A DNA stretch of 64,000 nucleotides from a virus (Duplodnaviria; Caudoviricetes), in IMG/VR virus record IMGVR_UViG_3300035505_000178. One strand, given 5' to 3'. Numbering within the stretch: the first letter of the stretch is position 1; each line of letters starts with the position of its first letter. The position numbers and the translations under genes are program-made. Positions 4,109-14,204 of this stretch are shown one piece after another. The notes beneath the pieces are model-generated. The model was not told the DNA's origin. It searched no databases and saw only the letters and a list, made by a program, of their open reading frames with translations.

Positions 4109-4314
4109 ATGTAGAAGACGAAGCCAGAAAGATGTATGAAATGGCACTTCTTTTTGAAGGAGATACAGTAGAAGAAAGTCTAGATGTTATAGCAAGCTAT
4201 ATAGGTAGAATGCTATACGTTGCTGGACATGATACGAAAACTGCAACTGAGATTTGTGCAAATGTTGCTTTAGGAAGTATGACTATGTTTACTAATTTAT
4301 CGCTTAGAAAATGA
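4105..4314 (+). CDS. Hypothetical protein
   Basis: ORF track, ATGA overlaps. Confidence 0.65.
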   Translation: MNVEDEARKMYEMALLFEGDTVEESLDVIASYIGRMLYVAGHDTKTATEICANVALGSMTMFTNLSLRK

Positions 4315-4631
4315 AAGAACTTGAAGTAAAATCAATGTTATCCGACCCGAATATTCCCGACAACTATAAGTTAGGTGGTCGGATTGATGAGAGATTCTTG
4401 GCTGGGGTTGAGTATGTCGAAGCATTGATAGAAGAAGCTCCTGAACTTTGGATAGCGAGAGATAGAGATGACGATAGAATATATCTGTATGAGGATAATC
4501 CAGCATGTGACGAGGAATGTGGAATGTTCTATGAAAGTGATAATGACTTTATAATAGAACTTCCTAAAGAATCGTTTCCTGAAGTAACTTTTGAAAACAG
4601 TCCACAAAAAGTTAATATCGTTATTAAATGA
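4311..4631 (+). CDS. Hypothetical protein, 'ELWIARD...FPEVTFENSPQKV' family
   Basis: Shared motifs with paralogs. Confidence 0.75.
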   Translation: MKELEVKSMLSDPNIPDNYKLGGRIDERFLAGVEYVEALIEEAPELWIARDRDDDRIYLYEDNPACDEECGMFYESDNDFIIELPKESFPEVTFENSPQKVNIVIK

Positions 4632-9999: not shown

Positions 10000-10072
10000 T
10001 GGGATATGGTGTAATGGTTAGTCACTACAGTTTTTGGAGCTGTCAGTACAAGTTCGACTCTTGTTATCCCAA
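10000..10072 (+). tRNA. tRNA-Gln(TTG)
   Basis: TGGGATA/TATCCCA acceptor; loop TTTTGGA; T loop TTCGACT. Confidence 0.92.
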
Positions 10073-10081
10073 CAATTAAAT

Positions 10082-10166
10082 GCTCGAATGGTGTAATTGG
10101 TAGCCACGTCAGATTTAAGCTCTGATGGTCATTGCGACTGTGTGGGTTCGAGTCCCACTTCGAGTA
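10082..10166 (+). tRNA. tRNA-Leu(TAA)
   Basis: GCTCGAA/TTCGAGT acceptor; loop TTTAAGC; long variable arm. Confidence 0.92.
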
Positions 10167-10418
10167 CAAAGTGATTTATTAACACAGTAAGACTATAAAG
10201 GAATTATTTCTGAGGACGTAATATATTTTGTAGCAATGTAAATAAATCCGCTCGTGATTTAGAAGTAGGTACGTAACTATCTAAATTAAACTCAAGAGTC
10301 ATTTGAGGTAGAGTTTTTAGGGAGGGGTTATGACGTGCAGCCAAAACATAATTACAGGATGCATACTGTATATTATCATTTAATCGTTTTACTGATTGTC
10401 TGGTTTGGATTAAAGTTT

Positions 10419-10491
10419 CCCGTATTCGTATATGGAGTACGCTCCGACTCTAAATCGGTGAGGTCTGCAGTTCGATACTGCTTATACGGGC
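10419..10491 (+). tRNA. Amber suppressor tRNA (anticodon CTA), probably Gln-inserting
   Basis: CCCGTAT/ATACGGG acceptor; CCGA-CTCTAAA-TCGG anticodon arm; T loop TTCGATA; late genes carry in-frame TAG. Confidence 0.88.
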
Positions 10492-10494
10492 TAT

Positions 10495-10567
10495 GCTCCC
10501 ATCGACAAGTTGGTTAAGTCGTCAGATTTTCATTCTGGAGTCAGGGGTTCGAATCCCCTTGGGAGTA
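10495..10567 (+). tRNA. tRNA-Glu(TTC)
   Basis: GCTCCCA/TGGGAGT acceptor; loop TTTTCAT. Confidence 0.92.
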
Positions 10568-10605
10568 CAATATCGGTAGATTAATTTTTTTAATTTTTAA
10601 ATTTT

Positions 10606-10779
10606 ATGTTTATGCGTAAAGTAATTCTTTTCTCTGCCTTTATTTTGGGCATGATGTGTTCTTGTGGCAATAAGCCAGCAAATGTTTCTACTTCTGCAGA
10701 TTCAACAGCAGTTGATTCAATTGAAGTTGTAGATACTTTGTCAGTAGATACATTAACTCTTGATACTTTGTCAGAGTAA
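10606..10779 (+). CDS. 57-aa lipoprotein with repeated D-(S/T)-x motifs
   Basis: MFMRKVILFSAFILGMMCSCGNKPANVSTSADSTAVDSIEVVDTLSVDTLTLDTLSE; SPII-type signal with S-C-G-N lipobox (alternative start 10612). Confidence 0.8.
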   Translation: MFMRKVILFSAFILGMMCSCGNKPANVSTSADSTAVDSIEVVDTLSVDTLTLDTLSE

Positions 10780-10821
10780 TTAATTAGATTAAAGTGTTAT
10801 AGCTCACTTTAAAAGCTATAT

Positions 10822-10896
10822 TGGAGGTATAGCTCAACAGGTTAGAGCAATTGACTGTTAATCAATAGGTTATAGGTTCGAGTCCTATTATTCCAG
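10822..10896 (+). tRNA. tRNA-Asn(GTT), bulged acceptor stem
   Basis: ATTGA-CTGTTAA-TCAAT; canonical D and T arms. Confidence 0.85.
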
Positions 10897-11020
10897 CTAA
10901 AGAGATAATTAAGTTTAAAGGACACATTCTTAATTATCATGCACTTCTTTTAGAATATAAACAATAAATAATTAGTGCGTTATTTGTAGTTTATTTAAAA
11001 AATGTAGGTCCGTTTTTGTT

Positions 11021-11097
11021 TGATACTTAGTCCAACCGGCAGGACGCTCATCAAAGTACTGAAATGAGAGGTAGTGGTTCGAATCTGCTAGTATCAA
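11021..11097 (+). ncRNA. tRNA-like RNA with 12-nt anticodon loop
   Basis: TGATACT/AGTATCA, GTCC/GGAC, CTCAT-CAAAGTACTGAA-ATGAG, T loop TTCGAAT. Confidence 0.75.
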
Positions 11098-11135
11098 CAA
11101 TTAACCATATGTGATTTAATTTTAAAAATTGCTTT

Positions 11136-11163
11136 AATAGACGGTCTGTGAAGATAGTCTATT
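11136..11163 (+). repeat. Conserved GYGA hairpin, copy 1
   Basis: aatagac-GGTCT-GTGA-AGATA-gtctatt. Confidence 0.7.
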
Positions 11164-11295
11164 TTAAATGATGTATATGGTCAACATCAACGCAGTTCTA
11201 TTTCGCGAGAGAATGTGCAGAGAGTAAGGTGCAAGACAGTAATGGAGAGGGCAGAAGTTCTTGAAAGTACACGATGGAAGTATATATCATTAAAA

Positions 11296-11369
11296 GGATC
11301 CGTAGCTCAGTTGGTTAGAGCAATAGACTCATAATCTGGAGGTCATAGGTTCAAGCCCTATCGGATCCA
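11296..11369 (+). tRNA. tRNA-Met or Ile2 (CAT)
   Basis: GGATCCG/CGGATCC acceptor; loop CTCATAA. Confidence 0.9.
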
Positions 11370-11370
11370 C

Positions 11371-11464
11371 AAACCAGAGAAATCCAGGTTAAAATCCTGT
11401 TTGGAAATAGACTACACATCATTGTTTGCCTATTTAGCATATAGTAGAATAATGCGCTGGTTTT
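11371..11464 (+). ncRNA. Candidate circularly permuted tRNA-like RNA
   Basis: 3' half (ACCAG, T arm, AATAGAC) precedes 5' half (GCCTATT-TA-GCAT...ATGC-G-CTGGT). Confidence 0.5.
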
Positions 11465-11466
11465 AT

Positions 11467-11541
11467 AGACCGTTAGTTCAGTTGGTTAAGAATGTTTGTC
11501 TTACACACAAAAGGTCGTAGGTTCGAGTCCTACACGGTCTA
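11467..11541 (+). tRNA. tRNA-Val(TAC)
   Basis: AGACCGT/ACGGTCT acceptor; loop CTTACAC. Confidence 0.92.
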
Positions 11542-11561
11542 CTAAAGGTTAAACATGTGTG

Positions 11562-11589
11562 AACTTCTGGTTCGTGAGAATAGGAAGTT
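11562..11589 (+). repeat. Conserved GYGA hairpin, copy 2
   Basis: aacttct-GGTTC-GTGA-GAATA-ggaagtt. Confidence 0.7.
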
Positions 11590-11593
11590 TTAT

Positions 11594-11664
11594 CTCCGAT
11601 TGACCGAGTGGTTAGGTGAAGATCTGCAAAATCTTAAACATTGGTTCGAATCCAATATTGGAGT
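11594..11664 (+). tRNA. tRNA-Cys(GCA)
   Basis: CTCCGAT/ATTGGAG acceptor; AAGAT-CTGCAAA-ATCTT; U discriminator. Confidence 0.9.
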
Positions 11665-11666
11665 CT

Positions 11667-12107
11667 ATGATAAAACACAAAAGTAAAGACGCAAAAGAAG
11701 ACCTAGAAACATTTCGTAAATTCTCTTCTGAACATTTAAAAAGTAGAAGAGAATATTATGGACATCTTTGGGAAGATGCTCCAGAAGAGTTCAAGTCTGA
11801 TATAATAAATCAGATTAATAAGGAAATGGAATGGATGTTTGATTTACATCCATATTATGTAGGTAAGAGATGGTTACAATGTAATGCTAGTAGATACCCT
11901 CGTTACTGTAGAGTTAGTAACATTGAATGGGAATTTCCAGATATTACTAATAGTGATAAATTATATCCTGTTGTAAAAAGTATGAAGATTGATGACCACG
12001 ACGTAAATGGAAAAATTACCTACAGTATGACCTATGAATATCCAGAAGAAGATTGGTTCTTAGATGGATGGGTCAATCGTAAGTCAAATGATATAGATGA
12101 TGATTAA
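11667..12107 (+). CDS. Hypothetical protein within tRNA cluster
   Basis: Start moved to ATG 11667 because the track start overlaps tRNA-Cys. Confidence 0.7.
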   Translation: MIKHKSKDAKEDLETFRKFSSEHLKSRREYYGHLWEDAPEEFKSDIINQINKEMEWMFDLHPYYVGKRWLQCNASRYPRYCRVSNIEWEFPDITNSDKLYPVVKSMKIDDHDVNGKITYSMTYEYPEEDWFLDGWVNRKSNDIDDD

Positions 12108-12158
12108 TTTTATAGTTTAAGTTAGTGTATAAATAATTTGTTTGTGAAAATAGATTAA

Positions 12159-12242
12159 TGGAGTGCTGCAGAGTTGGCGAACTGCGATAGACTGTAAATC
12201 TATTGACTTTGGTCTGAGGGGGTTCGAGTCCCTCCACTCCAA
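12159..12242 (+). tRNA. tRNA-Tyr(GTA)
   Basis: TGGAGTG/CACTCCA acceptor; ATAGA-CTGTAAA-TCTAT; long variable arm. Confidence 0.9.
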
Positions 12243-12269
12243 CGTATTGTGTTTTAGATAATCTGATCA

Positions 12270-12295
12270 ATGACTGGTCTGCGAAGATAGGTCAT
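12270..12295 (+). repeat. Conserved GYGA hairpin, copy 3
   Basis: atgact-GGTCT-GCGA-AGATA-ggtcat. Confidence 0.7.
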
Positions 12296-12296
12296 A

Positions 12297-12361
12297 GCAA
12301 TGTAGTGTAAGGAGCACGCTCAAAAGCTATGAGAAGTTTAGGTTCGATACCTGACATTGCA
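12297..12361 (+). ncRNA. tRNA-like RNA with 6-bp acceptor and non-canonical anticodon arm
   Basis: GCAATG/CATTGC, GTGT/GCAC, CTCA-AAAGCTA-TGAG, TTAGG-TTCGATA-CCTGA. Confidence 0.7.
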
Positions 12362-12427
12362 ACTCGTGTTTTCATGGTACGCTTATTAATTTAAGCATAT
12401 TAATTTTTTGATTGTTATTAATTTATT

Positions 12428-12459
12428 TAGGTAATTGGTTCGTGAGAATAGATTATTTA
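12428..12459 (+). repeat. Conserved GYGA hairpin, copy 4
   Basis: taggtaatt-GGTTC-GTGA-GAATA-gattattta. Confidence 0.7.
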
Positions 12460-12464
12460 AAAAC

Positions 12465-12554
12465 TGGGATGCTTGGTACAGAGTTGGAGAACTGTAACAG
12501 ACGATGAATCTGTTGGCATTTTTGCCTGAGTAGGTTCGAATCCTACCATCCCAA
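12465..12554 (+). ncRNA. tRNA-Tyr-like paralog with aberrant anticodon loop (CGATGAA)
   Basis: TGGGATG/CATCCCA acceptor; D arm nearly identical to tRNA-Tyr; G33; 6-nt acceptor-D linker. Confidence 0.75.
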
Positions 12555-12664
12555 CTAATTATGGTGATCGTACAATATCAAATTGGAATTGGTTTTGATT
12601 TTCAACCAATAGTTGTAAATCATTATATTGAAGAGATTAAATTATTTAATAAGATAAGATTAAA

Positions 12665-13528
12665 ATGAAAGATTTTTTTAGTAAGTCTGGTATTACCAGC
12701 ACAGATGCAAATTTTTATGCGAATCTTGCACAAGAAAAGATTCAGAATAAGTTGAAGCAAATAGAATCAATGTCTTTTGTGAATACTTACGTTCAAGTCG
12801 TTGGAACAAACGGAAAACTTTTGATGTCTAAAGGAGTACATAAGTATAATATAGATGAAGTAATTAAAAATATTACAGAAGCTAATTCATTATGTGCTTG
12901 GTTAAGAGAAGCTATCAAGTATAAGGATCAGCTTTTAAAAGAAGCAGAACAAGAACTTAATAAAACTTATGAAGTTCCTTGTCCAGAACCTCCTGTACGT
13001 CCTACTCCTCTTACAGAAGATGACATCATCGCTCAGATGGATTCTAATGAGTATTATAAATACTTAGCATTGGAATCTGCAGCAGCTACTTATGGAAAAA
13101 TTATCCATCCTAAGAGACCGTTTAGCATTGCTAGACAGGATCTTTTGGATAAAGTTAATAACCCAATTTCTAAAGAAGGAACTGGAACAGATACAACTTT
13201 GTATTATTACGAAGAAACTGTTAATCCTGATGAAATTGAGGACTATTTTGAGAAATTGCAGAATGATTATAGAGCTTTTGAGAAAGAGCTTAATAACATG
13301 AAAGCAATAATTAAGGATCGTCTGGCTAAAGCTAATATAGACCTCGAAGAGGAATATAAGAAAGCTTATGCTAAATATCACCAAGAATATGTCGATTGGA
13401 CCAAAGCTGGTTCAGACTTCTATTGTAATCAGAAAGAGAAAGTTATTAATGAGAAAGATAGAATATCTAAGCTCAAAATTAAAATTCCTACTGATTTACA
13501 AGACATATTCAATAAAATCTCTAAATAA
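12665..13528 (+). CDS. Coiled-coil hypothetical protein (287 aa) with downstream structured RNA
   Basis: ORF track; helical, with a Pro-rich hinge PCPEPPVRPTP. Confidence 0.85.
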   Translation: MKDFFSKSGITSTDANFYANLAQEKIQNKLKQIESMSFVNTYVQVVGTNGKLLMSKGVHKYNIDEVIKNITEANSLCAWLREAIKYKDQLLKEAEQELNKTYEVPCPEPPVRPTPLTEDDIIAQMDSNEYYKYLALESAAATYGKIIHPKRPFSIARQDLLDKVNNPISKEGTGTDTTLYYYEETVNPDEIEDYFEKLQNDYRAFEKELNNMKAIIKDRLAKANIDLEEEYKKAYAKYHQEYVDWTKAGSDFYCNQKEKVINEKDRISKLKIKIPTDLQDIFNKISK

Positions 13529-13535
13529 TTAGAGT

Positions 13536-13704
13536 TATTATAGAGAGAACGAGAAATCATAATGGACATTATATAAGTTTTAAATTTAACTTCTTCTTGG
13601 CAGGGATTACACAATTTTACAAATTGTCTTTGTCTTCGTTTGTAATTCCTGGTCTTTGTCTTAGTTTTTAACTTAGTCTACGCTTCTCGTTTCTCTCTAT
13701 AATA
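13536..13704 (+). ncRNA. Candidate structured RNA with hexamer repeats
   Basis: 20-bp closing stem 13536-55/13684-704; inner stem CAGGGATTACA/TGTAATTCCTG; GTCTTT-type hexamers. Confidence 0.6.
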
Positions 13705-13804
13705 TTTTGTGTATCAGTTGCAAGTTATCTTTAAACTTGATGACTGTTGTCTCTAACTTCTCAACAAGATGAATTGGAGGGGTGCTTATCCTTAAAGCAA
13801 ACCT

Positions 13805-13852
13805 AAAAGTGGATACGTATTCAGATACACAAATACGTAATCCACTTTTTTT
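13805..13852 (+). terminator. Intrinsic terminator
   Basis: AAAAGTGGAT-ACGTATT...AATACGT-A-ATCCACTTTT plus T run. Confidence 0.7.
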
Positions 13853-13871
13853 ATTCTAATAACATTACTTT

Positions 13872-14204
13872 ATGCTAGAAAGAGTTAACAAAAAAGTACA
13901 AGTAGATTATGAATCCAAAATTAAAGAGATTCTAGACGGATTTGACTTTGAAACTACTAGTTGTGTAATGAATGAATGTCTACTTCCAGTATGGGATGAT
14001 GATTGTGAAAGAATTATTGATCGTACTTCTTGGACGATTGGTGATAATACGGCAACTCCTTCTTTACTAAAAAGAATGGCTTCTGATTTGTTACATAGAG
14101 TCGTAGATGAAAGATTAAGTTCGATTGCATCTGGTCCATTCAAAGTGACTAGAGTTGGAGATTACCTATCATTGGCTTTTGTTTATTGTGACTATGATGC
14201 TTGA
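13872..14204 (+). CDS. Hypothetical protein
   Basis: ORF track. Confidence 0.7.
   Translation: MLERVNKKVQVDYESKIKEILDGFDFETTSCVMNECLLPVWDDDCERIIDRTSWTIGDNTATPSLLKRMASDLLHRVVDERLSSIASGPFKVTRVGDYLSLAFVYCDYDA

What the first reader, a model, noticed from the sequence alone, without database searches (positions are those of the whole stretch)
12665..13704. Coiled-coil gene followed by a structured RNA with phased hexamer repeats: candidate protein-RNA module
Seen: 8 nt after the stop, a 20-bp stem (13536-55/13684-704) encloses an 11-bp inner stem. Largely unpaired 6-nt-period runs lie inside: GTCTTT GTCTTC GTTTGT (13626-43) and GTCTTT GTCTTA GTTTTT AACTTA GTCTAC (13652-81). There is no credible ORF here. 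A long hairpin also precedes the gene (12560-12625). Inference: periodic binding sites for an oligomeric or filamentous protein, probably the adjacent 287-aa product, forming an uncharacterised RNP or an antitoxin-like pair.
Basis: partly seen in the sequence, partly recalled or inferred. Interest (0 to 1): 0.75.

Follow-up and report, generated by a model that had tools for sequence, protein, structure and literature searches.

The report
Phage protein gene with hexamer-repeat RNA
A gut-phage gene of unknown function is always followed by the same kind of folded RNA, two nested stems carrying about eight phased six-base GNYUUU repeats. The pair recurs in hundreds of Bacteroidales phages and chromosomal islands and matches no catalogued RNA or protein family, so it is probably an undescribed protein-RNA module.

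Summary
Window 13532-13708 folds as a 20-bp outer stem (P1) around an 11-bp inner stem (P2), with GUCUUU-type hexamers at 13626-43 and 13652-81.

The same architecture sits directly after the stop codon in essentially every homologue of the 287-aa gene that I fetched, with the best sense-strand hexamer run downstream in 64 of 66 unique loci at 28-100% protein identity. These loci include phages from about 23 to 54% GC and Bacteroidales chromosomes.

The stem sequences differ in almost every lineage: 21 of 23 pairs carry compensatory changes, and G:U outnumbers A:C 41 to 8. The hexamers keep the pattern G-N-Y-U-U-U. A U-run or a tRNA gene follows P1, so the element is the 3' end of the gene's transcript. 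In the window's clade a second, pseudoknotted domain and an intrinsic terminator extend it to about 13852.

Nothing matches in Rfam, Pfam or the PDB. The best reading is phased binding sites for an oligomerising single-strand RNA binder, most likely the adjacent protein. A host cold-shock or OB-fold protein is the main rival, because the hexamer consensus equals the CspB optimum GTCTTTG. No binding was tested.

The claimed upstream hairpin is not significant. The scan's earlier notes cover this stretch only in this same genome.

The parts
12665..13528 (+). 287-aa protein gene. Helical, with a small four-strand sheet. No Pfam family; only a marginal PHROG match (E 0.0033) to a family of unknown function.
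   Evidence: ORF. Pfam gave nothing and PHROGs gave only a marginal hit. 203 near-length homologues. 1092 clusters at 50% identity with E <= 1e-3. AF2 model pLDDT 81 with no PDB fold match.
13532..13555 (+). P1 outer stem, 5' strand (core 13536-55)
   Evidence: Covaries across lineages (11 of 13 pairs carry compensatory changes).
13601..13611 (+). P2 inner stem, 5' strand (CAGGGAUUACA)
   Evidence: 10 of 10 modelled pairs carry compensatory changes.
13626..13643 (+). Hexamer run 1 (GUCUUU GUCUUC GUUUGU), on the 3' side of the P2 loop. Its last 3 nt enter P2.
   Evidence: The equivalent run is present in most lineages. 6-nt indels change the copy number in relatives.
13641..13651 (+). P2 inner stem, 3' strand (UGUAAUUCCUG)
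13652..13681 (+). Hexamer run 2 (GUCUUU GUCUUA GUUUUU AACUUA GUCUAC), between P2 and P1
   Evidence: Position frequencies over 22 lineages are G 0.85 / N / Y 0.97 / U 0.69 / U 0.84 / U 0.65. These are the most conserved columns of the 5' domain.
13684..13708 (+). P1 outer stem, 3' strand, followed by AUAUUUUG
   Evidence: In lineages without the 3' domain, P1 is followed by a U-run in 9 of 11.
13705..13808 (+). 3' domain, clade-specific. It has very high sequence conservation, a hairpin at 13714-13747, and UUUUGUGUAUC 13705-15, which can pair with the terminator loop 13824-34.
   Evidence: The pattern was found in 47 IMG/VR contigs, always after the homologous gene.
13809..13852 (+). Intrinsic terminator: hairpin 13809-45 plus U7 at 13846-52. 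This is the likely 3' end of the transcript.
   Evidence: Equivalent terminators occur in L009, L010, L012, L014 and L018.

Best explanation
The 287-aa gene and the RNA form one conserved two-part module.

Shown:
- The RNA is the structured 3' end of the gene's own transcript. Nothing lies between the stop codon and the element, and a U-run, terminator or tRNA gene follows it.
- Its conserved core is two nested helices (P1, P2) that hold two runs of six-base repeats, about 3 + 5 copies of G-N-Y-U-U-U, in a fixed geometry.

Inferred:
- The repeats are phased binding sites, one per subunit or domain, for a protein that coats single-stranded RNA in 6-nt register. This is the way TRAP and HutP read phased triplets.
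- The most likely binder is the protein encoded immediately upstream, because it is the only invariant neighbour.

More speculative: because P1 doubles as a terminator-like stem, occupancy of the repeats would set how well P1 closes. That would control termination or read-through into the downstream genes, or the stability of the 3'-terminal RNA. It would give the protein a feedback or timing switch, or yield a stable RNP.
For: Strict linkage:
- The motif lies just 3' of the stop codon in all 51 unique flanks of the first set. The best sense-strand hexamer run downstream beats four size-matched controls in 64 of 66 unique loci.
- A covariance model built from 9 relatives hits only that place, on that strand: 24 of 28 and 16 of 28 loci, window E 4.7e-9, no off-target hit at E <= 1.
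- There is one strong copy in each of four large (177-193 kb) related phage genomes, three of them 99-100% complete.
- Other neighbours vary: tRNAs, HNH, GIY-YIG, RNase H, FtsZ-like, HD, SMC-like, integrase, DprA, AcrB.

Structure under selection:
- 25 distinct P1 and 28 distinct P2 sequence pairs.
- RNAalifold recovers both helices.
- 97.7% of cells are paired against 69% in shuffles and 30-51% when slid. 21 of 23 pairs carry double changes.

One strand only: G:T 41 against A:C 8 inside helices under symmetric scoring.

Transcribed:
- A U-run follows P1 in 9 of 11 lineages that lack the 3' domain, against a background of 0.19. Canonical terminators follow the 3' domain.
- tRNA genes abut the element, and in L118 a tRNA sits inside it.

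Repeats under selection: G1, Y3 and U5 are kept from about 23 to 54% GC. Indels come in units of 6.

Analogy, from established knowledge: TRAP reads 11 (G/U)AG triplets spaced by 2-3 nt, and HutP reads two sets of three UAG spaced by 4 nt.
Against: - No binding, oligomerisation or expression data exist.
- The protein has no recognisable RNA-binding fold. It is mildly acidic to neutral (median pI 6.0).
- Predicted accessibility of the repeats is no higher than that of other loops.
- One natural variant (L059) keeps the RNA but only the last ~60 codons of the gene, so the RNA may persist without the protein.
- The consensus GUCUUUG equals the optimum of an unrelated host protein family, the cold-shock domain (PMC1904285).
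- Linkage alone would also follow if the RNA merely served the gene in cis.
Confidence: 0.45

Rival explanations
1. The RNA is a platform or sponge for a host OB-fold single-strand binder: a cold-shock protein such as the single Bacteroides CSP BT1884, or ribosomal protein S1, or the Rho N-domain. Eight tandem near-optimal sites would titrate or recruit that protein. This could block host RNA chaperoning or antitermination, or keep P1 open. The adjacent gene would be linked only because the RNA is its 3' UTR.
For: The position-frequency consensus of the hexamers is G-U-C-U-U-U-(G). That is identical to the B. subtilis CspB optimum 5'-GTCTTTG/T-3', with C preferred at position 3 and T at positions 2, 4 and 6 (PMC1904285). 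GUCUUUA was co-crystallised with CspB, and a CSD has six base subsites, which matches a 6-nt period (PMC7825780). B. thetaiotaomicron has one CSP, BT1884 (PMC13370968; CSD control). The five related phage genomes I searched encode no CSD of their own. CsrB- and RsmZ-type sponges show the principle (established knowledge).
Against: CSDs have low sequence specificity and bind as monomers, so neither the strict phase nor the conserved G is explained. The terminal G is not even seen in the CspB-RNA crystal. The hexamer sequence drifts between lineages (GUUCUU, GCCNUU, GAUAUU) although host CSPs are highly conserved. This reading also does not explain why the gene and RNA stay together in chromosomal islands as well as in phages.
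Confidence: 0.2
2. The pair is a type III-like toxin-antitoxin or abortive-infection module. The RNA neutralises or is processed by the protein, and the pair spreads as a selfish or defensive cassette between phages and Bacteroidales islands.
For: It is a self-contained two-part cassette. It is found both in phages and in chromosomal islands, next to integrase remnants, a tRNA-fragment att site and a TOTE conflict-system primase. The RNA carries repeats beside the protein gene, as in ToxIN (established knowledge).
Against: The repeat unit is 6 nt rather than about 36 nt. The RNA lies downstream with no terminator between gene and RNA. The protein shows no ToxN/AbiQ-like or any other nuclease fold. 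L059 has lost most of the protein gene and kept the RNA, which neither supports nor excludes a toxin.
Confidence: 0.1
3. The element is only an elaborate transcript end: a large intrinsic terminator or 3' stabiliser. The U-rich repeats would arise from slippage and pyrimidine bias, with no specific binder.
For: P1 is followed by a U-run in 9 of 11 lineages that lack the 3' domain. 6-nt indels show that slippage occurs. An earlier follow-up in this genome read the tRNA-array hairpins as end-protecting elements (e1-5748409, not tested here).
Against: A terminator needs no 170-250-nt interior. G1, Y3 and U5 are held across about 23-54% GC and 28% protein identity, in two runs at fixed places relative to P2. 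That is purifying selection on the repeats themselves. They are the most invariant columns of the 5' domain.
Confidence: 0.12
4. The element works as DNA. It would be a replication origin or primase-loading site, in which the adjacent protein is the initiator, the hexamers are iterons or priming sites (GTC/GTT), and the stems form in unwound single-stranded DNA.
For: The element sits at the head of the replication module, which includes helicases, a primase, a ligase, a polymerase and an RNase H two genes downstream. Two sets of short direct repeats beside an initiator gene resemble SaPI and plasmid origins. GTC and GTT/GCT are the T7 and T4 primase recognition triplets (both from established knowledge).
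Against: A terminator, U-run or tRNA gene is placed after the element rather than before it, and a tRNA gene sits inside it in L118. A 6-bp phase puts successive sites on opposite faces of duplex DNA. There is no GC-skew switch here. The element also occurs in chromosomal copies with no replication genes nearby. G:T wobble at about 6% of pairs is typical of RNA, although it does not exclude ssDNA.
Confidence: 0.08

Closest known systems
TRAP-trp leader and HutP-hut leader RNA-binding attenuation systems (Bacillus)
   Same: Short phased repeats in single-stranded RNA lie next to helices that decide terminator formation. HutP reads two sets of three repeats, much like the 3 + 5 layout here. An oligomer reads one repeat per subunit.
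   Different: The repeat here is G-N-Y-U-U-U with period 6, not (G/U)AG. It lies in a 3' UTR after the presumed regulator's own gene, not in a 5' leader. The protein is helical and unrelated to TRAP or HutP, and its oligomeric state is unknown.
Cold-shock-domain binding site (B. subtilis CspB optimum GTCTTTG/T; PDB 3pf4 GUCUUUA) and protein-sponge RNAs such as CsrB/RsmZ
   Same: The hexamer consensus is letter-for-letter the CspB optimum. Many copies of a short motif displayed on a structured ncRNA is the design of a sponge.
   Different: No known CSP sponge RNA exists. The motif drifts among lineages, and strict phasing is not needed for monomeric CSDs.
Type III toxin-antitoxin systems (ToxIN, CptIN, TenpIN)
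   Same: A protein gene is paired with an adjacent repetitive RNA. Both kinds of cassette are shared by phages and bacterial islands.
   Different: Those systems have 34-36-nt repeats upstream of the toxin, separated by a terminator. The toxin is an endoRNase that cuts the repeats. None of these features is seen here.
Phage T4 gene 32 translational operator
   Same: A folded nucleation element is followed by repeated short U/A-rich motifs that allow cooperative coating by the phage's own single-strand binder. It is autoregulatory and sits in a replication module.
   Different: The T4 operator is 5' of the gene and overlaps the ribosome-binding site. gp32 is an OB-fold protein.
Stable ncRNAs of phage tRNA clusters (T4 species 1 and 2 RNAs; GOLLD and ROOL)
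   Same: These are structured RNAs of unknown function encoded among phage tRNA genes.
   Different: There is no sequence or model match to any Rfam family, GOLLD and ROOL included. This RNA is much smaller, and none of those RNAs has a dedicated upstream protein gene or phased hexamers.

Membership tests
Any Rfam 15 RNA family | Covariance-model score at or above the curated gathering threshold | tested here: not met
   Whole window at gathering threshold: only tRNAs. Permissive E-value scans of window 12300-14000 and of loci L009, L010, L012 and L014 gave no family over the element. The only overlap was a chance mir-466 hit on the terminator hairpin, 23 bits against a threshold of 85.
Structured RNA (generic): conserved secondary structure | Compensatory base changes that keep the helices | tested here: met
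   21 of 23 pairs carry changes on both sides. 97.7% of cells are paired, against 69% shuffled and <= 51% slid (that alignment was fitted to the model). Independent support: RNAalifold on a MAFFT alignment, and 25 and 28 distinct helix sequences found by a model-free search.
TRAP/HutP-type attenuation RNA | Phased short repeats in single-stranded RNA, adjacent to a terminator or antiterminator helix | tested here: met
   Period-6 repeats conserved over 22 lineages. P1 is followed by a U-run in 9 of 11 lineages without the 3' domain.
TRAP/HutP-type attenuation RNA | Cognate ring-forming RNA-binding protein of the TRAP or HutP fold | tested here: inconclusive
   No Pfam or PDB sequence hit and no such fold among the structure matches. 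The absence of a listed fold match does not exclude an analogous oligomer.
Type III toxin-antitoxin | Tandem ~36-nt RNA repeats upstream of the toxin gene, with a terminator between them | tested here: not met
   The repeats are 6 nt and lie downstream of the gene, with no terminator between the stop codon and the RNA.
Type III toxin-antitoxin | ToxN/AbiQ-type endoribonuclease toxin | tested here: inconclusive
   No sequence or fold match. Toxicity was not testable.
Cold-shock-domain ligand | Pyrimidine-rich heptamer matching GTCTTTG/T (C at position 3; T at 2, 4, 6) | tested here: met
   The consensus from the position frequencies is G U C U U U (G), against PMC1904285. Actual binding is not testable with these tools.
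Iteron-type replication origin | Direct repeats bound as duplex DNA by the adjacent initiator, an AT-rich unwinding element, and no requirement for one strand | tested here: not met
   Strong strand asymmetry of wobble pairs (41 G:T against 8 A:C). Terminators and tRNA genes are placed after or inside the element. There is no GC-skew switch. Binding is not testable.
Intrinsic terminator | G+C-containing stem directly followed by a U-run | tested here: met
   Window hairpin 13809-45 plus U7. P1 plus a U-run in 9 of 11 distant lineages. The atypical feature is that the P1 'loop' is 130-250 nt.

The most novel reading that the evidence does not exclude
This is a previously unrecognised class of phage- and island-borne ribonucleoprotein. 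A helical protein of a new fold would polymerise in strict 6-nt register on a (GNYUUU)n RNA held by two nested helices. The assembly would act as a self-contained switch that gates a giant terminator hairpin, or captures a host OB-fold RNA chaperone, at the entry to the phage replication genes. It would be mobile enough to have spread through Bacteroidales phages and chromosomes.
Probability: 0.35. Interest if true: 0.85.

Novelty: new variant of a known kind. Interest (0 to 1): 0.74.

Why it matters
Bacteroidales and their phages lack Hfq, ProQ and CsrA, and very few RNA-protein regulatory systems are known for them. This finding offers a widespread module: more than 1000 protein clusters at 50% identity. 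It has clear structural covariation and an unusually explicit candidate binding code, G-N-Y-U-U-U in 3 + 5 copies. The module sits at the boundary between the tRNA array and the replication genes of large gut phages.

It gives a directly testable handle with EMSA, RIP-seq, cryo-EM and hexamer mutants. The questions it addresses are how these phages time gene expression or exploit host RNA chaperones. It also adds a new candidate RNA family and a new protein family for annotation of gut viromes.

Tried and rejected
- **Window's own assembly:** not held. The nearest record is an 18-kb fragment without the element.
- **Homotrimer prediction for the protein:** no verdict, score 0.10. I do not use it as evidence either way.
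- **Fold and profile searches** (PDB by Foldseek and VIA-align, BFVD, ESM Atlas, PDB sequences, Pfam, PHROGs): only unannotated relatives and generic helical-bundle rows with Z <= 6.6.
- **Cultured phages:** none in the INPHARED collection carries the gene. There were two uncultured hits.
- **Bacteroides RRM protein RbpB as binder:** its reported motifs (GUAGGAUA; AU-rich) do not resemble the hexamers.
- **Coding readings of the repeats:** stops in every frame in the window, and the frames differ between the two runs.
- **Antisense targets:** no AAAGAC arrays in the window.
- **boxA/NusB-NusE mimicry (GCUCUUUA) and anticodon-loop decoy ideas:** I considered both but could not test them, and the lineage drift of the hexamer argues against a fixed host site.
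- **Upstream hairpin 12552-12664:** not significant and not conserved.
- **Literature:** searches for a described crAss-like or gut-phage ncRNA of this kind, and for the 'TOTE' system, found nothing usable.

Full report
**What is in the window**

The window is AT-rich (about 30% GC) phage DNA with all genes on the + strand up to about 54 kb. A tRNA array at 10000-12363 is followed by the 287-aa ORF at 12665-13528. Then comes a 343-nt gene-free stretch, and then a replication module: RNase H, helicases, primase, exonucleases, NrdD, ligase and DNA polymerase.

P1 is 13536-55 with 13684-704, 20 bp with one bulge. P2 is 13601-11 with 13641-51, 11 bp. The hexamer runs are at 13626-43 and 13652-81. 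The fold is far better than shuffled sequence (z -4.9; z -5.6 for the full 13529-13852).

**The element is conserved with the gene**

The protein has no Pfam family and only a marginal PHROG match. It belongs to a large family, however: 203 near-length relatives and 1092 clusters at 50% identity. Most lie on 100-190-kb viral contigs.

I fetched the DNA around relatives in five ways:
- By exact protein look-up.
- By a DNA pattern from the 3' domain.
- By protein profile in IMG/VR.
- By protein profile in GTDB genomes.
- By covariance model in whole phage genomes.

Eight other metagenome contigs that encode the identical protein have an identical downstream region wherever the contig reaches (seven over all 343 nt, one over 88 nt). 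In relatives at 28-45% identity the downstream region has a different sequence but the same plan:
- A long outer helix.
- An inner helix that usually closes with CU...AG.
- About three hexamers on the 3' side of the inner loop.
- The junction G.
- About five more hexamers.
- The 3' strand of the outer helix.

A model-free score for a five-hexamer run is highest downstream on the sense strand, above four size-matched controls, in 64 of 66 unique loci.

**Covariation and strand**

The helices have 25 (P1) and 28 (P2) distinct sequence pairs. RNAalifold on a plain MAFFT alignment of nine relatives returns exactly P1 and P2.

A covariance model built from those nine behaves as follows:
- It finds the window's element at E 4.7e-9.
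- It finds the element in 24 of 28 and 16 of 28 further loci, including 20-kb chromosomal stretches.
- Every hit is directly after the gene on its strand, with no other hit at E <= 1.
- It finds one strong copy in each of four large (177-193 kb) related phage genomes; it missed the distant fifth, where the element is seen by eye.

On the model-fitted alignment, 97.7% of cells pair, against 69% after shuffling and 30-51% after sliding. 21 of 23 pairs show changes on both sides.

With a scoring that treats G:T and A:C alike, the helices hold 41 G:T and 8 A:C. The structure therefore forms on the + strand only.

**It is RNA, and it is the transcript's 3' end**

- In the window's clade a second, very conserved domain follows. 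It has a hairpin and a segment that pairs with the terminator loop and covaries: GUGUAUC/GAUACAC here, UGCUUC/GAAGCA or GUUUC/GAAAC elsewhere. It ends in a canonical terminator (13809-52).
- In 9 of 11 lineages that lack this domain, a U-run follows P1 directly, against a background of 0.19.
- In several lineages tRNA genes start within tens of bases after the element. In L118 a complete tRNA-Thr gene lies inside it, between P1 and P2.
- No promoter-like signal separates the gene from the RNA (I also saw no Bacteroidetes-type TAnnTTTG motif when reading the junction sequences, a check by eye only).

These points argue against a purely DNA-level role. I could not obtain RNA reads.

**The repeats**

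Over 22 lineages spanning about 23-54% GC the positions read G 0.85, N, Y 0.97, U 0.69, U 0.84, U 0.65. Positions 2-4 drift with base composition, while G1, Y3 and U5 are held. Copy number changes by 6-nt indels. In the window's clade these columns are the most invariant of the 5' domain.

Thermodynamic prediction does not make the repeats more accessible than other loops. Their single-strandedness is therefore an assumption.

**Who binds?**

The adjacent protein is the only constant neighbour. This holds both in phage tRNA and replication regions and in Bacteroidales chromosomes. Two chromosomal examples:
- In Phocaeicola barnesiae the pair sits beside a truncated integrase and a TOTE primase-helicase.
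- In a Prevotella chromosome it sits beside a tRNA-fragment att site and DprA.

That linkage is the main argument for a protein-RNA partnership. Against it, the AF2 model (pLDDT 81) is a helical bundle with a small sheet and matches no known fold. The family is also mildly acidic.

The consensus GUCUUU(G) is exactly the optimal heptamer of B. subtilis CspB (PMC1904285). A cold-shock domain has six base subsites (PMC7825780). Bacteroides has one CSP (PMC13370968), and the related phage genomes I searched encode none. A host OB-fold binder is therefore a serious rival. The lineage drift of the motif and the strict phase fit a co-evolving, oligomerising partner better.

**Mechanism**

I commit to phased binding of an oligomerising single-strand RNA binder to the two repeat runs, most likely by the upstream-encoded protein (0.45). 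The probable consequence is control of P1 closure, and so of termination or read-through, or of the stability of the 3'-terminal RNA. The design principle is that of TRAP and HutP.

| Step | Status |
|---|---|
| Conservation of the module | Shown |
| Structure of the RNA | Shown |
| Strand on which the structure forms | Shown |
| Position at the transcript end | Shown |
| Selection on the repeats | Shown |
| Binding by a protein | Inferred |
| Stoichiometry | Inferred |
| Regulatory outcome | Inferred |

**Novelty**

No Rfam family matches. No Pfam family matches. I found no paper describing it. The scan's earlier notes mention this stretch only in this same genome.

It fails the defining features of type III TA systems and of iteron origins. 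It shares the design, but not the parts, of attenuation RNAs and sponge RNAs.

Noticed in passing
window 13705-13852: A second RNA domain is more conserved in sequence than the neighbouring protein gene. It has a hairpin at 13714-47 and a 5' segment (13705-15) that pairs with the loop of the terminator hairpin (13824-34), making a pseudoknot. This pairing covaries in relatives. The domain is present only in the window's clade: 47 IMG/VR contigs by pattern.
   Followed up: partly
window 12467-12551: An unannotated 85-nt type-II tRNA-like gene with a good acceptor, T arm and long variable arm, but anticodon loop CGAUGAA (G33, anticodon AUG). ARAGORN misses it and Rfam gives only a weak tRNA-Sec hit (25 bits). 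Homologous loci have a normal tRNA-Leu of 85-88 nt in roughly the same upstream position.
   Followed up: partly
L059 3257-3560 (minus strand): In one 118-kb viral contig a tRNA gene is joined directly to the last ~60 codons of the protein gene, while the downstream RNA is intact (CM E 3.5e-28). This is either a natural deletion variant or a mis-assembly.
   Followed up: partly
L118 2404-2476: A complete tRNA-Thr(GGU) gene lies inside the RNA element, between the P1 5' strand and P2. RNase P/Z processing would split the RNA into two pieces held together by P1. L129 has a tRNA-like T arm at the same place.
   Followed up: no
L010 3660-3950 and L018 3665-3955: A ~270-nt insertion between the 5' and 3' RNA domains replaces a small hairpin. 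It contains a tRNA-like T arm (GUAGGUUUGAAUCCUAC) and has no Rfam match.
   Followed up: no
L012 911-965: A sub-threshold match to the F. prausnitzii HDV-like ribozyme (28.7 bits, gathering score 44) lies directly after a phage tRNA gene (825-910).
   Followed up: no
L166 (Phocaeicola barnesiae DSM 18169 scaffold, 160.4-180.4 kb): The chromosomal copy of the gene-RNA pair overlaps the 3' end of an integrase ORF that lacks its catalytic C-terminus. It is followed by an AAA_14/DUF4143 ATPase, a TOTE-type AEP primase-helicase and a PLD-like nuclease, which looks like a defence island.
   Followed up: partly
L117 658-1039: ARAGORN calls a phage-encoded tmRNA (tag GNTSYRVAA) in the tRNA array upstream of a homologous gene-RNA pair.
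   Followed up: no
window 10420-10491: A tRNA with anticodon CUA (amber suppressor, called tRNA-Pyl by ARAGORN) sits in the tRNA array. This suggests TAG read-through or recoding in part of this phage. The 287-aa gene and its relatives mostly end in TAA.
   Followed up: no
L012 3213-3386, L018 4149-4322, L010 ~4137-4325: Small lipoprotein-like ORFs of about 57 aa follow the RNA's terminator in several relatives. They have a signal peptide with Cys and several D-S/T-hydrophobic motifs. The window has a 110-aa ORF there instead.
   Followed up: no
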